A DNA stretch of 64,000 nt, taken from Phallusia mammillata (lineage: Eukaryota). The stretch spans positions 4,402,001 to 4,466,000 of the forward strand of contig OZ281498.1 of assembly GCA_965637545.1 (NCBI GenBank). The letters run 5' to 3'. Position 1 is the first letter of the stretch. Every line of letters starts with the position of its first letter. Of this stretch, positions 48,001 to 57,000 are shown piece after piece. The position numbers are program-made.

Positions 48001-51000
48001 GTTTGAGACATCTTGCACCAATAAACAGGAATCGTCACTTTGGATTGTGCGCCATATCAGCGTGAAACGTGGGGATTTTTGCAAGACAATGATGGATTGC
48101 ATTTTCTCATAAAAAATACATTCCTAGCCAAAGCATATTCGTAAAAAATCACACAATTTATGTGTTTTTCCGTATACCTGCTGTATTAATTTGGGCACAA
48201 AATGGCGTCCACGGGGCTCTACCGCTAGACCTACCATACGTACCTCTTTGGAGGACATTTCCTCCTTTCTAACGAAAAACAAGTTGGCCTACAAGGACAA
48301 TAAAAAATACCCAAATGTCATCGTTTTGAATTTTCTGTATTTACTAAATACGAAATTATTGTGTCTTTAACATCGGCCAAAGAGTGCGAGTTGTGGTCAT
48401 TGTTGATAGAAATTCACAATTTATAGTAAGTTAAACTTCATCCAAATTGGACTATAATAATTGACTGCGTGAAATTCGTGAAATATAGTGTGCCTTTATT
48501 TTCTTTGGGCACGAAAGTAAGTATTTAGGCTATATTCTTTGCCGGGAATGTGCCCTCCTTTTTGGTTGTGAAAATATGGTAGGCCTATCTACCGCGTAAC
48601 AATGGGTTGGACTACTTGTACTTGTGTTTTACATGTACTCTGGTTTGTGAGTATGATGTGCTCCGGAGTTGCAACAAGGACAAATAAAAGTGATTCACGC
48701 CTAATGATTGGTGATATCCTTCAGGTGTAAGAAGCATTCTTCGATAAAATCACCTTATTATTTGCCAGGCAGCAGTGGCGGAACCAGGAGGGGTAGAGGG
48801 CGATCCACCCACCCATAGGGTCGATTCCCGGGGTGGCAGGGGTGGCAGGGGTGGCAGCCTCCCCACTAAAAATCTCTGGTGTGGCAGCCCTTGTAAAATA
48901 GCTATGCTGCCACCCCAGAAATTGCCTGGCCGTATTTATATTCGTGCATTACAGATATGCGTTTCTTTCATTCACATGCCCTCTTTCGAATGGTCGGTAT
49001 ATTTTGAGCATGTGCAAAGCAAGCTATGTGAAATCCTTAACCCATTTTGCGCTACTCGTTTCAGTGATTTTCGCCAAGTTTGCTTCTCAAAAGCAAGCCT
49101 GAACAAGACTTTTGACATAACGATTGCAATTTTCACGTTTTTGTGTATTATGGATGTTAATTGGTAGTTGGGGATTATATTGTTACGTAAGTGTTCCGTT
49201 TTCATGTGTGGAAAATGGAATTGTAGTGACCACTCATGTACCTAAATTTCGTGTGGGAACTGCAATGCCGATTCCATAGTTTTGCAAAAAATTGAAACGT
49301 TTGCGTTATGTGACCTTTTAAACCACACTACTTCTCACGGATTATTATTAACGCTACCCAGCACGAGATACACTTTTGCTGCCAGTAACCAGTATGCTGC
49401 TGTGAGTACATTACCAACATATTGTGACATTACAACTCCACAACTAGACGGGCGGTTTGTGACGTGACTTTCATAGGTGTTACATCCAAGTTAACCAATA
49501 TTGCGTACATAGTAATGTGCATGTTTATTCCCTTCCAATAACCGCGAACACCATCTACAAACCCTAACGTGTACCCCAGTGTGTTTTGATCACGTAAGGA
49601 ACCACTTGAACAAATTTCGCCACCCCACAAAAGAAAATTTATGCTAAAAAACGACGCCTATGCACCCACCCCCTCTGAGCATGCTGGCGACATTGCAGAT
49701 TTAAAGAAGACTTAATTAAATCCGACTTCTAGTCGACGAATTTTTTGATATCTATGGGCCAACGTTTGGCCAGACGGAATATGGAAGAAAAACAAACCGG
49801 TTTGTTGACTGTTCGCAGTTGTACGTTGATGAGGCTATTGCAATAAAGCAGTTTTATACCGGTCACGTCTAAAACTGCGGGCCCACTTGGATCACTTGGC
49901 CCGCTTGGCCCAGCACTTTATGCAATTGAAAAACTGCGGGCCCACTATATCCAGTGCTTCATGCTTGTCGCGTCTCTTGCAAGTATAAAAACTGCGGGCC
50001 CACAATATCCATTGCTTGGCCCGTCTCTCGTAGGGAAAAACGGGCCAAGTGCTGGGCCAAGCGGGCCAAGTGAGCCAAGCGGGCCCGCAGTTTTAGACGT
50101 GACCCGTTTTATACCATTCGAGACAGGCAGACAGCTAACTGACTGGCAACCTACTTACTACTCATTTTCGCTTTGTAACCAATTACCAACGGTCATAGCT
50201 GCATGATAAGTTCTAGCTTTGTTTGTAAACCGTTTCGTTACTTCTTTGCAAAACGTGTTTATAATATATGCAATGTACGTGTTCGTTGTCAGCCTGTGTG
50301 TTTTAGGAGGTTTCAGGAATAAAACGTTGTTATGAATATGATTATGTGGTGTATCATTTATTGGAATGTGCTATCTAGTATTTGTTTGGCATACAACTGC
50401 AGTTTAAAACTACAAAAAGATGAATATTATTGCACCAATGATGCTGAACAAGCAAACTGCCTTGAATTCCTTGCCCACCAACAGCATTTAAAATCTAACA
50501 CAAAAGCGAATGGTATTTCATCATCCTCTTGGTTTATACTTTGCTACTTTGCTGTTTCAAGTGAATTTGCTACAAGCCAGTGCAGAATACAACTTCCTGC
50601 TGGACCTGTAAAATGTACTACAGATAATAGTACTCCCAGCTCAATTAAGAGAAACTGTACAACTGTTCTAATGTACTTTTCTAAGAATGCAATATTTGAA
50701 GTAAAGAATGATGTAGATAAAACTGTATATAGTAAGTTTTAAGTTTTTTTTGGATTTGCCTAATTTTAGTGCAATTAGTGTGTAGTGCATTACAATTTTT
50801 ATTTATCCTAGGCACATTTAGGACAGTTTTTCTTAAACTTTTTCTTCACTCCTACCTTCCTATGTATAAAAATAACAACAATAGCCGAGGCTAACCCACT
50901 GCCACAAGTAATGGTAGTCAATATTTAAAAACAACTGAAGTATGAGTGGGTTCCAGTAAAAAAAGACTGGTGGTAATAGGTATAAACAATATAGTTAAAT

Positions 51001-54000: not shown

Positions 54001-57000
54001 AAATTCATGACTAATTTTTTTCAGTCCATCTGCGTGGAGTGGTGTGACAATTGCACTATTGGTGGTTGGTTGTATTGGTATTGTCCTTGGCCTTTTGTTC
54101 TGCACACATAGAGTCAAGAAACAGCTTAAATACTTTAAACGCGCCAATGACATAGACGAAAGTGACAGTGTCATCAAACATTTGGTAAGTTTCTCAACAA
54201 CAAAATTTGGGCAGTTATGTATCCTTTACACAGGATTTGTTCAGGACAAAGTCATTTCATCTCCTGATGAGTTTGGAGTCCATAATATTTCAGAACCTTT
54301 AGATGAAGTGGAGTGACTTGCTGGGATAAAAATACGATCAGTGTTAAAATAGTTTACGCAACCAATCAGGTGCTCTTTTAAAAAGGTTTATGCCCTTTTC
54401 ATGTGTTTTACCTATCTGCAGTTCTTTTCAGTCCATTGGTTTCAAAACATTCTTGCCATTGAGTGATTGATTCTTTCCTCAATTCACAAGAGATGTCGTT
54501 TACCACATTTCCCCAGTACTAAGTATTACCTGTTCGTCAATGACGTCATAGCATTTCCTAGTACTGTGCTGCGCCAGGCGCTGGAAACTTGTATACCTAC
54601 AGTAATCCGTTTCGTGTGCTTAGGATTGTTTGTGTTTAAAGCGGTGCCACGATGTTTTTTGTCCTGATTTACCATGGTGTTTTTTATTACTTCGTACAAA
54701 AACTTTCATTTTTAACAAAAAGGGCACATGCAAACAAATAAGTACAAACGTTTTTCACTGAATTAAATTAGACACTGAAATTTCGTGTTTAAGTAAACAA
54801 GTCAAATTGCTCGGTTCACCTAGTTCAGTGGTTCCCAAACTTTTTTCTTTTAAGGCGCATTTTAGAAAAAACAAAAATTATTTGGCACACTTCGAACATT
54901 TGAATAAAAAATATATTGACAAAGGCACTAACTATGAGGTCATAAAGCCGCTATACAGGTCACTCTCATAGTTAAATAGCCTAGTTGAACATCTCAGAGA
55001 CGTGGAGCATGTTGGCCTAGTGGTCTAAGCACCTGGTACTACTACTCTACTTGATTGATTTTAATTTCAATATTTTTTGCGGCACACCTAATGACATCTC
55101 GCGGCACACTGGTGCATAGTTTGGGAACCACTGACCTACTTTGTGTGGTCCATTTATGTTAAATACGGCTGGTAACCAAACGATACAGAAATAGTTTTAC
55201 GTCTGTTGGGACAGAATTCAACGGCTAAAAAGGAGCGTAAAAAAGCTTTTTTTGTCAGTAAGGGACACAATAAAGTACCACTTTTGGTCAAGATTATATT
55301 TCAAAAAACTGGAAAACATAGGCCCTTTTGTTAAGCCGTTTAACTTCGACTGTGTTTTGTTATGCGTTTCAGTATAAACAAAGTTTCATTGATCCCTATT
55401 GTCCCTTGTTATACTACATTCGACTTATTGTGCATCCCCATAAAAGCACACAAGAACAACATAAACAACAACAGTTTTTTGATTTATCTTTTGCCTGTAG
55501 TCACGCGTCAGTTGCCCTCGACGGGTGATCTTGTGGGATGTGTTTTTCGCGATCGCCGATTTCTTCCATTAATTTCAGTCGGGAGATTCAGAGAAGGTGA
55601 CAGCTGATCAATTCTGAGGCAACAAACACAGATTTATGTCAAGCAGAAGTAACCAACCTTGACAATTTCAAGCGTGCGGTTTGCGATTAGGGTTTGGTCC
55701 CCCGAAAATCCCGGGATTTAAAGCTTAAAAGATTTTTTTGAATCCCCATCCTGGGATTATTTTTGTTGAAATACCGCGATTAGAACCTAGCTTATATTAC
55801 TTAATGGGGATGCGTGTTTGTTCAATTGAAGAAAACTTTATATTGTGGCAGCTGCGGCATACAGTTAAACTTCAAGTTGCGCGGTAAACTGAGGAGATAA
55901 AAAACGATGGTTGCATTGCGGTGTCTACTACCATTGCATTAAACCGCTTGTTGGTTCGTGCACCCGACCTGCGCTGTTCGTGTTCTATATGTTTCTACAT
56001 TCGCATATTTCCAACCTTAGGGTTTTCACGACCGTTTCCTTATCCTCTGTCACTGCAATGTAGTGTTTTTGTACTAAAGTAGCCTACCTACTATATTATG
56101 CTATGTTCCGTTTCTTTATGCGCAGAAAATAAATTTATACAATGCAAATTATACATTGGTTTGATACTTTATGAAGAAAACTATAATACAAGTCATTTTC
56201 TTACCTTTCGGAAAGTACTTGGATCTGCTGGACAAGTTGAAACACTGTATCATGCATGCGAGCTTGAGTTTTTAAATACGCACGGCATGAGCATCCTCCA
56301 GGTATTGAACTGAGCGTGGTAGCCTAAATATGTTTTGTGTAAAGTGTGTAAGCTAAGGAGCCGTAAAAAAAAGATTATTTCCTTGAAATCTAAAATAGCA
56401 CTCTTTGGTGGTTTCTAAGGTCTGGTGCGAGCCGCAAAATAAGTAGTTGGGAGCCGCGTTTGAGAATCACTGCGTTAGAGCCTCGTGGAGCCATTTGTGT
56501 CCATAACCAGCGGGTATAAGGAAAAACACATATATTGTCTGATTTGTACAAACATGGTGAGCTTTGACGCAAACTTTGTTCGGCAAATTGAATGAAACTT
56601 TTGGGTCCTAACAATTTGGCTGATCAAATATCGCATTAAAGCCCTCCAGTTTGACAATATAGCATGTGTTTTTCCCCAAACCCGCTGTGTTACTTTGGAC
56701 ACAAAATGGCTCTATGGCGTAACAATTGAATGGACAACTTGTGTTTTATATTGATTTTAGGGTAGTGTAAACTTACGGTTCCCGTTATCGAATTGCTTTT
56801 GCTATTGCCTGGGTATCGGGCAAACACTGTGACGTTGTAGGTGGTTTCAGGAACGAGCTCTTCAAGCCTACCACAATCACTGATTAAATATTGAGTTAAC
56901 GCAACCATGCACATGCTACTTACAATAAAAAGCTGTTTATGACGCCTTGCATTGTCAGTGGTACTGAACCAGGCGAGGAGTATGTTACAACATAACTAGA

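What the first reader, a model, noticed from the sequence alone, without database searches (positions are those of the whole stretch)
50332..54302. Tandem pair of orphan Cys-patterned type-I membrane proteins
Seen: two head-to-tail genes about 485 bp apart with the same four-exon layout (phases 1,2,0; TM exon 160 nt in both). They share an ectodomain pattern YNCS..C..C...(L/M)C(Y/F)F.V...F...QC.I.L.AGPV.C.......(R/S)NCT.VL, then (E/D)KC...(V/M)ADR..A...PFSN, a TM helix and a short tail, yet are otherwise highly diverged. I recognise no known domain. Inference: members of an undescribed, fast-evolving cell-surface receptor/ligand family. Divergent tandem surface proteins of this kind are candidates for immune or allorecognition roles, but nothing here shows function.
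Basis: partly seen in the sequence, partly recalled or inferred. Interest (0 to 1): 0.65.

Follow-up and report, generated by a model that had tools for sequence, protein, structure and literature searches.

The report
Ascidian-only tandem membrane glycoprotein gene pair
Two neighbouring sea-squirt genes encode related single-pass membrane glycoproteins whose cysteine-rich outer domain matches no described protein family or solved fold; relatives were found only in other sea squirts and their function is unknown.

Summary
Two head-to-tail four-exon genes lie 484 nt apart, with intron phases 1,2,0 and a 160-nt TM exon in each. Their exon-1 products are 32% identical, E 9e-14, with 0 of 2000 shuffles reaching the score.

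The window is Phallusia mammillata. A deposited 456-aa "uncharacterized protein LOC100181657" matches it at all but 2 residues. That record is a read-through fusion: gene 1 exons 1-3 joined to an acceptor inside gene 2 exon 1. It moves the end of gene 2 to 54316.

A full HMMER scan of 1.84 billion representatives gave only 10 further relatives. The three with a species name are all ascidian: Phallusia, Ciona intestinalis and C. savignyi.

Nothing matches in Pfam, PDB sequences or Foldseek. AlphaFold2 nevertheless gives a confident alpha/beta ectodomain.

Gene 2 is the conservative copy and gene 1 the strongly accelerated one. No immune or allorecognition role is supported. Verdict: a real, lineage-restricted, uncharacterised family of moderate interest.

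The parts
50332..50731 (+). Gene 1 exon 1: start codon, hydrophobic signal-like N-terminus, and the main part of the ectodomain with the 7 family-invariant cysteines
   Evidence: Translated. Boundaries. 131 of 133 residues identical to deposited protein P0008. Cysteines aligned.
51800..51926 (+). Gene 1 exon 2: rest of the ectodomain, with the 8th conserved Cys, an ADR motif and an NWT sequon
   Evidence: 41 of 41 residues identical to P0008.
51998..52157 (+). Gene 1 exon 3 (160 nt): transmembrane helix and basic juxtamembrane stretch
   Evidence: Kyte-Doolittle 19-mer maximum 2.73. 53 of 53 residues identical to P0008.
52261..52344 (+). Gene 1 exon 4 (predicted): acidic, Ser/Thr-rich end of the tail and a TGA stop. 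No transcript support was found here.
   Evidence: Absent from P0008. It begins with D-H-L-L, which fits the family's [D/E]-x-[V/L]-[L/I] at this junction. Sequence similarity to the gene 2 exon 4 is not significant.
52418..52448 (+). Two ATTAAA hexamers (52418 and 52443), candidate poly(A) signals for gene 1
   Evidence: Pattern count. Function not tested.
52794..52799 (+). TATATA box-like hexamer 35 nt upstream of the gene 2 ATG, a candidate promoter of its own
   Evidence: Function not tested.
52829..53246 (+). Gene 2 exon 1: start codon, signal-like N-terminus and the main part of the ectodomain. At 52925 it holds an internal acceptor (ttttgcag|G) that the deposited fusion protein uses.
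   Evidence: P0008 residues 230-379 match 52925-53500 with 0 mismatches. The Met, hydrophobic start and first Cys are also present in relative P0010.
53373..53502 (+). Gene 2 exon 2: rest of the ectodomain, with the 8th Cys, an ADR motif and an NSS sequon
   Evidence: 42 of 42 residues identical to P0008.
54025..54184 (+). Gene 2 exon 3 (160 nt): transmembrane helix, basic stretch and acidic cluster
   Evidence: Kyte-Doolittle maximum 2.87. 53 of 53 residues identical to P0008.
54245..54316 (+). Gene 2 exon 4: acidic end of the tail and a TGA stop.
Evidence: P0008 residues 381-456 match 54026-54313 with 0 mismatches.

Best explanation
The locus holds two tandem paralogous genes of Phallusia mammillata. 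They belong to a small family that, among the relatives whose source is named, occurs only in ascidians.

Each gene encodes a protein of about 256-259 residues with these parts:
- a cleavable signal-like N-terminus;
- an N-glycosylated ectodomain of about 160 residues, held by 8 conserved cysteines (probably 4 disulfides) and predicted to be a compact alpha/beta domain of no described family;
- one transmembrane helix;
- a tail of 45-50 residues with a basic juxtamembrane stretch, an acidic cluster, a conserved [I/L/V]-K-x-L | [D/E]-x-[V/L]-[L/I] element across the last intron, and an acidic Ser/Thr-rich end.

Most likely mode of action (inferred). The protein is a membrane-anchored binding module, that is a receptor, co-receptor or adhesion or sorting partner. 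Its ectodomain binds a ligand in the lumen or outside the cell. The tail has no catalytic domain and no tyrosine signalling motif, so it more probably governs trafficking or adaptor binding.

Gene 2 is the conservative copy. Gene 1 is an old duplicate that kept the cysteine scaffold but evolved much faster, which suggests a changed or relaxed binding specificity.

Transcription sometimes runs from gene 1 into gene 2 and is spliced into an in-frame fusion. That fusion is probably a by-product and not the working protein.

Shown: gene structure, paralogy, family membership, lack of known domains, the asymmetry in rate, and the existence of the fusion record. Inferred: topology, disulfides, fold, binding function, tail function, and that the two genes are separate units.
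For: Organism and reality of the exons:
- P0008 (UniRef/nr, Phallusia mammillata) is 98% identical to exon 1.
- It differs from the window at 2 of the 452 residues that lie wholly inside exons. It is therefore an independent sequence of the same locus.

Paralogy.

Family:
- 11 proteins at E <= 0.001 (7 at <= 1e-10, 4 at <= 1e-30) among 1,835,955,588 representatives, the query included.
- Four answered a second search, three of them with a species name: Phallusia (the query itself), Ciona intestinalis LOC100185600 isoform X3 and Ciona savignyi H2YCB4. The fourth is an unnamed JGI contig.
- Seven cysteines plus A58 and F78 are invariant in 12 of 12 aligned rows.

Single-unit architecture:
- The full-length relatives P0009, P0012 and P0018 have exactly two hydrophobic segments, one N-terminal and one TM.
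- P0010, the nearest relative of gene 2 at 52% identity, has its own Met, hydrophobic start and first Cys.
- The fusion P0008 would have three hydrophobic segments. It also lacks the first invariant Cys of unit 2.

Fold:
- AlphaFold2 on the 12-row alignment gave mean pLDDT 79.4 and pTM 0.61.
- With another member first, 13 rows, it gave pLDDT 73.7 and pTM 0.58 with the same order of helices and strands.

No known relative.

Asymmetry:
- End branch 5.1 for gene 1 against 0.26 for gene 2.
- Of 22 positions at least 80% conserved in the 10 non-window members, gene 2 keeps 20 and gene 1 keeps 16.
- All 10 relatives align best to unit 2.

Age of the duplication: dN 0.59 with dS beyond computation, over 120 codons.

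Tail pattern.
Against: - The only deposited product is the two-unit fusion. No record shows gene 1 ending at its own exon 4, or gene 2 starting at its own ATG.
- An out-of-frame ATG lies 19 nt upstream of the gene 2 ATG (read).
- The exon 4 peptides of the two genes are not significantly alike. Gene 1 exon 4 gives no BLASTP alignment to the Ciona tail.
- The alignments behind the models have only 12-13 rows. The two models share most of those rows, so they are not independent. ESM's own single-sequence models of P0008 and P0012 are poor, with pLDDT 0.35 and 0.37.
- No coordinates were available, so the disulfide pairing could not be checked.
- No branch of the tree is well supported: 0 of 9 inner branches are starred. 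The long gene 1 branch may therefore be misplaced.
- Nothing here tests binding, location or expression.
Confidence: 0.6

Rival explanations
1. It is one gene and not two. The locus encodes a single 456-residue protein with two internal repeat units, as deposited. The reader's gene 1 exon 4 and gene 2 start codon are then not used.
For: - P0008 is the only product of the locus found.
- It joins the donor at 52157 to the acceptor at 52925 in frame.
- The acceptor has a good pyrimidine tract, ttttgcag.
Against: - All full-length relatives are single units.
- The fusion drops the first invariant Cys of unit 2, leaving an odd number of scaffold cysteines.
- With a signal peptide and two TM segments, the second glycosylated, Cys-rich unit would face the cytosol (inference).
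- Gene 2 keeps an in-frame Met, a signal-like start and the NCS motif, as its nearest relative P0010 does.
- Gene 1 exon 4 opens with the family's junction motif.
- The Ciona RefSeq isoform P0011 also carries foreign N-terminal sequence ahead of an internal signal-like segment. Merged models therefore seem common for this family.
Confidence: 0.15
2. The pair is an immune or allorecognition (self/non-self or gamete recognition) receptor-ligand pair.
For: - The products are tandem, divergent surface-type proteins, and one copy is strongly accelerated.
- The family is restricted to ascidians among the named hits.
- From recall, not from any call here: ascidians have lineage-specific recognition loci.
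Against: - No Ig, EGF, CCP, lectin, fibrinogen or other recognition domain was found in Pfam.
- There is no tyrosine-based signalling motif in either tail (sequences).
- Only 2 of 452 residues differ between the window and the independent record P0008. That is a sample of two haplotypes, so it is weak evidence, but it shows no sign of hypervariability.
- Only two copies sit in 64 kb, and the family is small.
- The HLA class I chains among the Foldseek rows have probability 0.02-0.04 and TM 0.07-0.09, which is noise.
Confidence: 0.07
3. The ectodomain is a very diverged mannose-6-phosphate-receptor-homology (MRH/CIMR) lectin domain. The proteins would then be small cargo-sorting receptors like the cation-dependent mannose-6-phosphate receptor.
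For: - In the language-model feature search with P0012 residues 27-192, the best three clusters carry PF00878 CIMR in 11-20% of members, with scores 0.77-0.79.
- From recall: the overall layout (signal, ectodomain of about 160 residues with disulfides, one TM, acidic tail) resembles that receptor.
- The conserved acidic-dihydrophobic tail element would suit adaptor-mediated sorting.
Against: - By the tool's own figures, scores under 0.8 are reached by a third of shuffled proteins.
- No CIMR, Man-6-P_recep or PRKCSH match was found for any of the 12 members at E <= 1, or for 4 members at E <= 10.
- No mannose-6-phosphate receptor or OS-9 structure appears among the 50 rows listed for either model.
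- The predicted fold has three to four helices interleaved with the strands. From recall, that is unlike the mostly-beta MRH barrel.
Confidence: 0.04
4. Gene 1 is a decaying duplicate on its way to becoming a pseudogene. Only gene 2 would be functional.
For: - The gene 1 branch is very long.
- Gene 1 has lost 6 of 22 family-conserved positions, including both conserved prolines.
- Its last exon has no transcript support.
Against: - The reading frame is open through all four exons, with intact GT/AG sites and conserved phases.
- All 7 invariant cysteines and the 8th are kept.
- Exons 1-3 are present in an expressed or deposited product.
- dS is saturated. An unconstrained copy of that age should have picked up stops.
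Confidence: 0.08

Closest known systems
Phallusia mammillata 'Uncharacterized protein LOC100181657' (UniRef/nr record, P0008)
   Same: It is the same locus. It is identical to the window at all but 2 residues, and it uses the same exon borders for gene 1 exons 1-3 and gene 2 exons 2-4.
   Different: It is a read-through fusion of both units. It skips gene 1 exon 4 and the first 96 nt of gene 2. It carries no functional annotation.
Ciona intestinalis uncharacterized protein LOC100185600 (isoform X3, P0011) and Ciona savignyi H2YCB4 (P0012)
   Same: They belong to the same family. E is 6e-34 and 6.7e-26 to unit 2. They share the 7 invariant cysteines, the W..C.F, GPV.C and NCT motifs, the Y-A-A-D-R-Y stretch, the TM helix and the tail element.
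   Different: - Identity to gene 2 over the exon-1 part is only 33-38%, and to gene 1 only 24-25%.
- P0011 carries an extra N-terminal piece of about 70 residues with a weak RING-like signal, E 0.62.
- Neither is characterised, and neither identifier occurs in the paper library.
Cation-dependent mannose-6-phosphate receptor / MRH domain proteins (architecture recalled, not fetched)
   Same: It is a small type-I glycoprotein with a disulfide-bonded ectodomain of similar size and an acidic tail. There is a weak feature-space lead to CIMR-bearing clusters.
   Different: There is no Pfam match and no Foldseek match. The cysteine spacing and the predicted secondary-structure order differ. It is not filed as a member.
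Conjoined / read-through genes of neighbouring same-strand genes (PMC2953495, seen as search listing and start of abstract only), and ascidian operons (PMC4122922, passages and section 9 read)
   Same: Exons of two adjacent same-strand genes are combined in one product. According to PMC4122922, 19% of Ciona genes lie in operons whose polycistronic transcripts are resolved by spliced-leader trans-splicing.
   Different: Here the joint is a cis-splice into the coding exon of the downstream gene. The genes are 484 nt apart. From recall, that is more than is typical for Ciona operons. Trans-splicing could not be tested.

Membership tests
Unnamed ascidian family (Ciona LOC100185600 / C. savignyi H2YCB4 / Phallusia LOC100181657) | Significant sequence similarity over the ectodomain | tested here: met
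   Unit 2 of P0008 matches 10 relatives at E from 5.6e-36 to 1.3e-06. Gene 1 exon 1 against gene 2 exon 1 gives E 9e-14.
Unnamed ascidian family (Ciona LOC100185600 / C. savignyi H2YCB4 / Phallusia LOC100181657) | Seven invariant cysteines in the exon-1-encoded part, plus an eighth in the exon-2 part | tested here: met
   Cys is present in 12 of 12 rows at 7 columns. The eighth Cys is present in gene 1, gene 2, P0009, P0011 and P0012, and shifted in P0018.
Unnamed ascidian family (Ciona LOC100185600 / C. savignyi H2YCB4 / Phallusia LOC100181657) | Single-pass type-I layout: signal-like start, one TM, short charged tail | tested here: met
   Hydrophobicity scan of each exon and of four full-length relatives. 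A TM helix appears in both models. No signal-peptide predictor was available, so cleavage is inferred.
Unnamed ascidian family (Ciona LOC100185600 / C. savignyi H2YCB4 / Phallusia LOC100181657) | Intron after the exon-1 part at the same position | tested here: inconclusive
   Both window genes have a phase-1 intron there. P0015, P0016 and P0017 lose similarity at that column and continue with G-K, the reading of a GGTAAG donor.
MRH / CIMR domain (PF00878 and relatives) | Match to the family profile | tested here: not met
   No such family was found for 12 of 12 members at E <= 1, or for 4 members at E <= 10.
MRH / CIMR domain (PF00878 and relatives) | MRH beta-barrel fold | tested here: not met
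   No receptor or OS-9 chain appears in the listed Foldseek rows of either model. The best E overall is 0.09 and 0.16. The only support is a feature score of 0.77-0.79.
MHC class I-like platform | Structural match to the alpha1-alpha2 platform | tested here: not met
   HLA-B and H2 chains appear only at E 0.2-0.5, probability 0.02-0.04 and TM 0.07-0.09, for one of the two models. None appears in the rows listed for the other model.
Known ascidian recognition proteins (Ig, CCP, EGF or fibrinogen-domain receptors; names recalled) | Presence of one of those domains | tested here: not met
   Pfam finds none in any member.
Ascidian operon | Downstream gene receives a spliced leader; minimal intercistronic spacer | not testable with these tools
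   No transcript reads were available. The spacer is 484 nt. Read-through as such is shown by P0008.

The most novel reading that the evidence does not exclude
The ectodomain is a truly new disulfide-rich alpha/beta fold that arose within tunicates. The tandem pair would be a co-evolving binding pair or heterodimer, with the slowly evolving gene 2 as the scaffold and the fast gene 1 as the specificity subunit. It would act in a lineage-specific cell-cell recognition process such as gamete, blood-cell or tunic-cell contact. The natural fusion transcript would then be a 'Rosetta-stone' hint that the two products work together.
Probability: 0.12. Interest if true: 0.7.

Novelty: new variant of a known kind. 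Interest (0 to 1): 0.38.

Why it matters

This family is small and cleanly defined. It has a confident predicted fold that matches nothing in the PDB, so a structure would probably add a new domain family.

The pair also offers a compact example of two things:
- asymmetric divergence after tandem duplication;
- a database record made by read-through splicing that hides a two-gene locus.

The second point matters for ascidian genome annotation. No link to immunity, allorecognition or any other process has been shown, so the practical importance is modest for now.

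Tried and rejected
- **Word-indexed homologue searches.** The searches with exon 1 (longer proteins) and with P0008 returned only the locus's own record.
- **ESM Atlas.** There was no usable feature hit for unit 1, and all structure rows had TM <= 0.36 on poor models.
- **The listing of cluster members.** It could not be made because the database was switched off. The sources of 7 of the 10 relatives therefore stay unknown, and the taxonomic range beyond Ciona and Phallusia is open.
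- **Complex prediction.** Binding between the two products stayed unchecked.
- **Sigma-70 promoter and terminator scan** of the spacer. This does not apply to a eukaryote and was disregarded.
- **Rfam and tRNA scans** of the window found nothing.
- **dN/dS between the paralogues** is uninformative because dS is saturated.
- **BLASTP of gene 1 exon 4 against the Ciona protein** gave no alignment.
- **Paper searches.** The three identifiers LOC100181657, LOC100185600/H2YCB4/XP_026689342 gave 0 papers. The broader word searches gave nothing on this family.
- **Collections not used.** The phage, plasmid and E. coli collections are irrelevant.
- **Joined models.** The spliced models were searched exon by exon, and the joined coding sequences were not built.

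Full report
**Organism.** The window is animal DNA with short GT-AG introns. Translating the first exon of the upstream gene and searching the large protein collection for longer proteins returned one hit among 46 candidates. It is a 456-residue UniRef/nr record of the ascidian Phallusia mammillata named "Uncharacterized protein LOC100181657", 98% identical over the whole query (taxonomy). I therefore take the window for Phallusia mammillata, not human. Neighbouring open frames fit an animal genome. They include an intronless NDUFB8 (Pfam E 2.6e-30), rhodopsin-type GPCR pieces, fn3 and EGF pieces.

**The observation.** Reading the sequence and tabulating the borders gives the following exons.

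| Exon | Gene 1 | Gene 2 |
|---|---|---|
| 1 | 50332-50731 | 52829-53246 |
| 2 | 51800-51926 | 53373-53502 |
| 3 | 51998-52157 | 54025-54184 |
| 4 | 52261-52344 | 54245-54316 |

Both genes have intron phases 1, 2, 0 and a third exon of exactly 160 nt. All donors are GT and all acceptors AG. The spacer from stop to ATG is 484 nt.

The exon-1 peptides align at 42 of 131 identities, E 9e-14. Shuffle controls give:
- exon 1: z = 21, 0 of 2000 shuffles reaching the score;
- exon 2: z = 8.4, 0 of 2000;
- TM exon: z = 2.8, 33 of 2000;
- last exon: z = 0.5, 584 of 2000.

A tblastn of every exon peptide against the window finds only these two copies. The next best exon-1 hit has E 0.26.

**The deposited protein.** The record P0008 was compared with the window exon by exon. 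It contains gene 1 exons 1-3. It then continues in frame at an acceptor inside gene 2 exon 1 (ttttgcag|G at 52925, 96 nt after the gene 2 ATG), and runs through gene 2 exons 2, 3 and 4. Of the 452 residues that lie wholly inside exons, 2 differ, both in gene 1 exon 1. The record is thus an independent sequence of the same locus.

It does not contain gene 1 exon 4 or the first 32 codons of gene 2.

**One gene or two.** Several points argue for two genes.
- The four full-length relatives are single units with one N-terminal and one internal hydrophobic segment. In P0011 the first segment is preceded by about 70 foreign residues.
- The fusion would have three hydrophobic segments. With a signal peptide and two membrane spans, its second glycosylated, cysteine-rich unit would lie on the cytosolic side. 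It also lacks the first family-invariant cysteine of that unit.
- Gene 2 keeps an in-frame Met, a hydrophobic start and the N-C-S motif, as its nearest relative P0010 does.
- Gene 1 exon 4 opens with D-H-L-L. This fits the [D/E]-x-[V/L]-[L/I] found right after this intron in gene 2, P0011 and P0018.
- ATTAAA hexamers follow the gene 1 stop at 52418 and 52443. A TATATA hexamer lies 35 nt before the gene 2 ATG.

Some points argue against.
- No record shows the separate ends.
- An out-of-frame ATG lies 19 nt upstream of the gene 2 ATG.
- The exon-4 similarity is not significant.

I rate two genes with occasional read-through splicing as clearly more likely than one two-unit gene. Read-through is plausible in ascidians. 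A review states that 19% of Ciona genes lie in operons whose transcripts are resolved by trans-splicing (PMC4122922, passages read). Whether gene 2 receives a spliced leader could not be tested.

**The family.** The word-indexed search with P0008 found only itself among 4057 candidates. The exhaustive HMMER scan of 1,835,955,588 representatives found 11 proteins at E <= 0.001, the query included: 7 at <= 1e-10 and 4 at <= 1e-30. All ten relatives align best to unit 2.

A profile search that reports names returned four of them among 2568 candidates:
- P0008 itself;
- P0011, Ciona intestinalis uncharacterized protein LOC100185600 isoform X3;
- P0012, Ciona savignyi H2YCB4;
- P0015, from an unnamed JGI contig.

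The range beyond Ciona and Phallusia is therefore open.

The 12-row alignment shows seven invariant cysteines, invariant A58 and F78 (P0012 numbering), and nearly invariant L37, W72, P81, F84, G100 and V102. An eighth cysteine and a Y-A-A-D-R-Y-like stretch lie in the exon-2 part. A sequon on the N-C-T motif is present in 8 of 12 rows.

Three of the short library proteins (P0015, P0016 and P0017) lose similarity exactly at the exon-1 border and continue with G-K, which is the reading of a GGTAAG donor. They therefore appear to be open-frame calls on intron-bearing genomic DNA with the intron at the same place.

**Known families.**
- Pfam gave no family for either window ectodomain and none near a curated cut-off for any of the 12 members. 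The best was Cadherin_C_2, E 0.012 and 16.7 bits against a cut-off of 31.5, over the TM and tail of P0012. Four full-length proteins at E <= 10 gave nothing either.
- PDB sequences gave one chance TM match at E 5.1 with the profile, none for P0008, and one at E 1.1 for P0009.

**Predicted fold.** AlphaFold2 on the family alignment with P0012 first gave mean pLDDT 79.4 and pTM 0.61, with blocks of about 90 in the ectodomain. The order of elements is:
- a long helix;
- a long strand and a short helix;
- four strands;
- two helices;
- two strands;
- the TM helix.

With P0009 first, the same order came back at pLDDT 73.7 and pTM 0.58. Foldseek found 0 matches at E <= 0.001 in the PDB for either model, with best E 0.09 and 0.16 and TM at most about 0.3. 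It also found 0 in BFVD, best E 0.04.

The models rest on only 12-13 rows and are not independent of each other. ESM's own models of P0008 and P0012 are poor.

Two weak leads were looked at and not accepted.
- CIMR/MRH: feature scores of 0.77-0.79, a level that a third of shuffled proteins reach according to the tool.
- MHC class I chains: probability 0.02-0.04 and TM 0.07-0.09 for one model only.

**Evolution of the pair.** In the tree of the exon-1 part (116 columns, 12 rows), the gene 1 end branch is 5.1 changes per column against 0.26 for gene 2. The nearest row to gene 2 is P0010 (52% identity) and the nearest to gene 1 is gene 2 (33%). None of the 9 inner branches is well supported.

Of 22 positions at least 80% conserved among the ten non-window members, gene 2 keeps 20 and gene 1 keeps 16. 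Gene 1 has lost both conserved prolines but none of the cysteines.

Between the paralogues dN is 0.59 and dS is beyond computation over 120 codons, with third-position identity 0.41. The duplication is therefore old, and the open frame of gene 1 argues for continued constraint.

The Ciona intestinalis and C. savignyi members are 54% identical over this part. According to section 9 of PMC4122922, the two Ciona species are further apart than human and chicken. I cannot say whether these two members are orthologues.

**How it probably works.** The sequence shows a signal-like start, four sequons per ectodomain and a strongly hydrophobic 19-mer in exon 3 (Kyte-Doolittle 2.7-2.9). The tail is basic next to the membrane, then acidic, then Ser/Thr- and Glu-rich. 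It has no catalytic domain and no Y-x-x-L/I motif.

From general knowledge of single-pass glycoproteins, I infer a membrane-anchored binding module. Its conserved tail element and acidic, probably phosphorylatable, clusters would serve sorting or adaptor binding rather than direct signalling. That inference is untested. A prediction of binding between the two ectodomains could not be queued.

Nothing supports an immune or allorecognition role. No recognition domain is present, the family is small, and the two available haplotypes differ at 2 of 452 residues. That is a very small sample, but it gives no hint of hypervariability.

**In print.** Searches of the paper library for LOC100181657 and for LOC100185600, H2YCB4 and XP_026689342 found 0 papers. 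Word searches on ascidian-specific membrane proteins and Phallusia resources gave nothing on this family.

**What was left out.** The spliced models were searched exon by exon. The joined coding sequences of the two genes were not built, and whole-length comparisons used the deposited record instead. The closed collections (metagenome and viral contigs) were not searched.

**Verdict.** This is a real tandem pair belonging to a small, uncharacterised family, ascidian in every case where the source is named. Its ectodomain matches no described family or solved fold. It is already in the databases as an unnamed "uncharacterized protein", and the locus's own record is a read-through fusion. It is a new domain family within a familiar class of proteins, of moderate interest.

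Noticed in passing
window 49851-50114: An inverted repeat with 68-nt arms (91% complementary, 128 nt apart) sits about 220 nt upstream of the gene 1 ATG. It looks like a miniature inverted-repeat element. Its reading frames give the Gly/Pro-rich pseudo-ORF at 49847-50206.
   Followed up: partly
window 46270-46992 (+): An uninterrupted frame matches NDUFB8 (complex I ASHI subunit), Pfam E 2.6e-30. It appears to be intronless here.
   Followed up: partly
window 9639-10025 and 13849-14664 (-): Two open frames carry pieces of a rhodopsin-family 7TM receptor (Pfam 7tm_1, E 8.6e-06 and 7.3e-08). They are probably exons of one GPCR gene with a long Ser/Asn-rich N-terminus.
   Followed up: no
window 56690-58780 (-): Several frames carry fibronectin type III pieces (E 1.3e-06 and 0.0084). 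This is a multi-exon fn3 gene, convergent with gene 2.
   Followed up: no
window 28851-29587 and 37074-38711 (+): A signal-peptide-like Gly-rich frame is followed by a Cys-rich EGF-like piece. Further EGF-like frames follow (Pfam EGF_MSP1_1 E 1e-04 at 38403-38711).
   Followed up: no
window 52810-52812: An out-of-frame ATG lies 19 nt upstream of the gene 2 start codon and would open a short overlapping upstream frame. It bears on where the gene 2 mRNA begins (read).
   Followed up: no
P0011 (Ciona intestinalis LOC100185600 isoform X3), residues 1-70: The RefSeq isoform starts with a Cys-rich RING/IBR-like stretch (weak zf-C3HC4_4, E 0.62) ahead of an internal signal-like segment. The Ciona model thus also looks merged with an upstream neighbour.
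   Followed up: partly
P0015, P0016, P0017 (library proteins): These short relatives stop resembling the family at the exon-1 border and continue with G-K, as expected when a GGTAAG donor is read through. They look like prokaryote-style ORF calls on tunicate genomic DNA.
   Followed up: partly
whole window: No tRNA gene was found, and no Rfam family reached its gathering score in 64 kb.
   Followed up: yes
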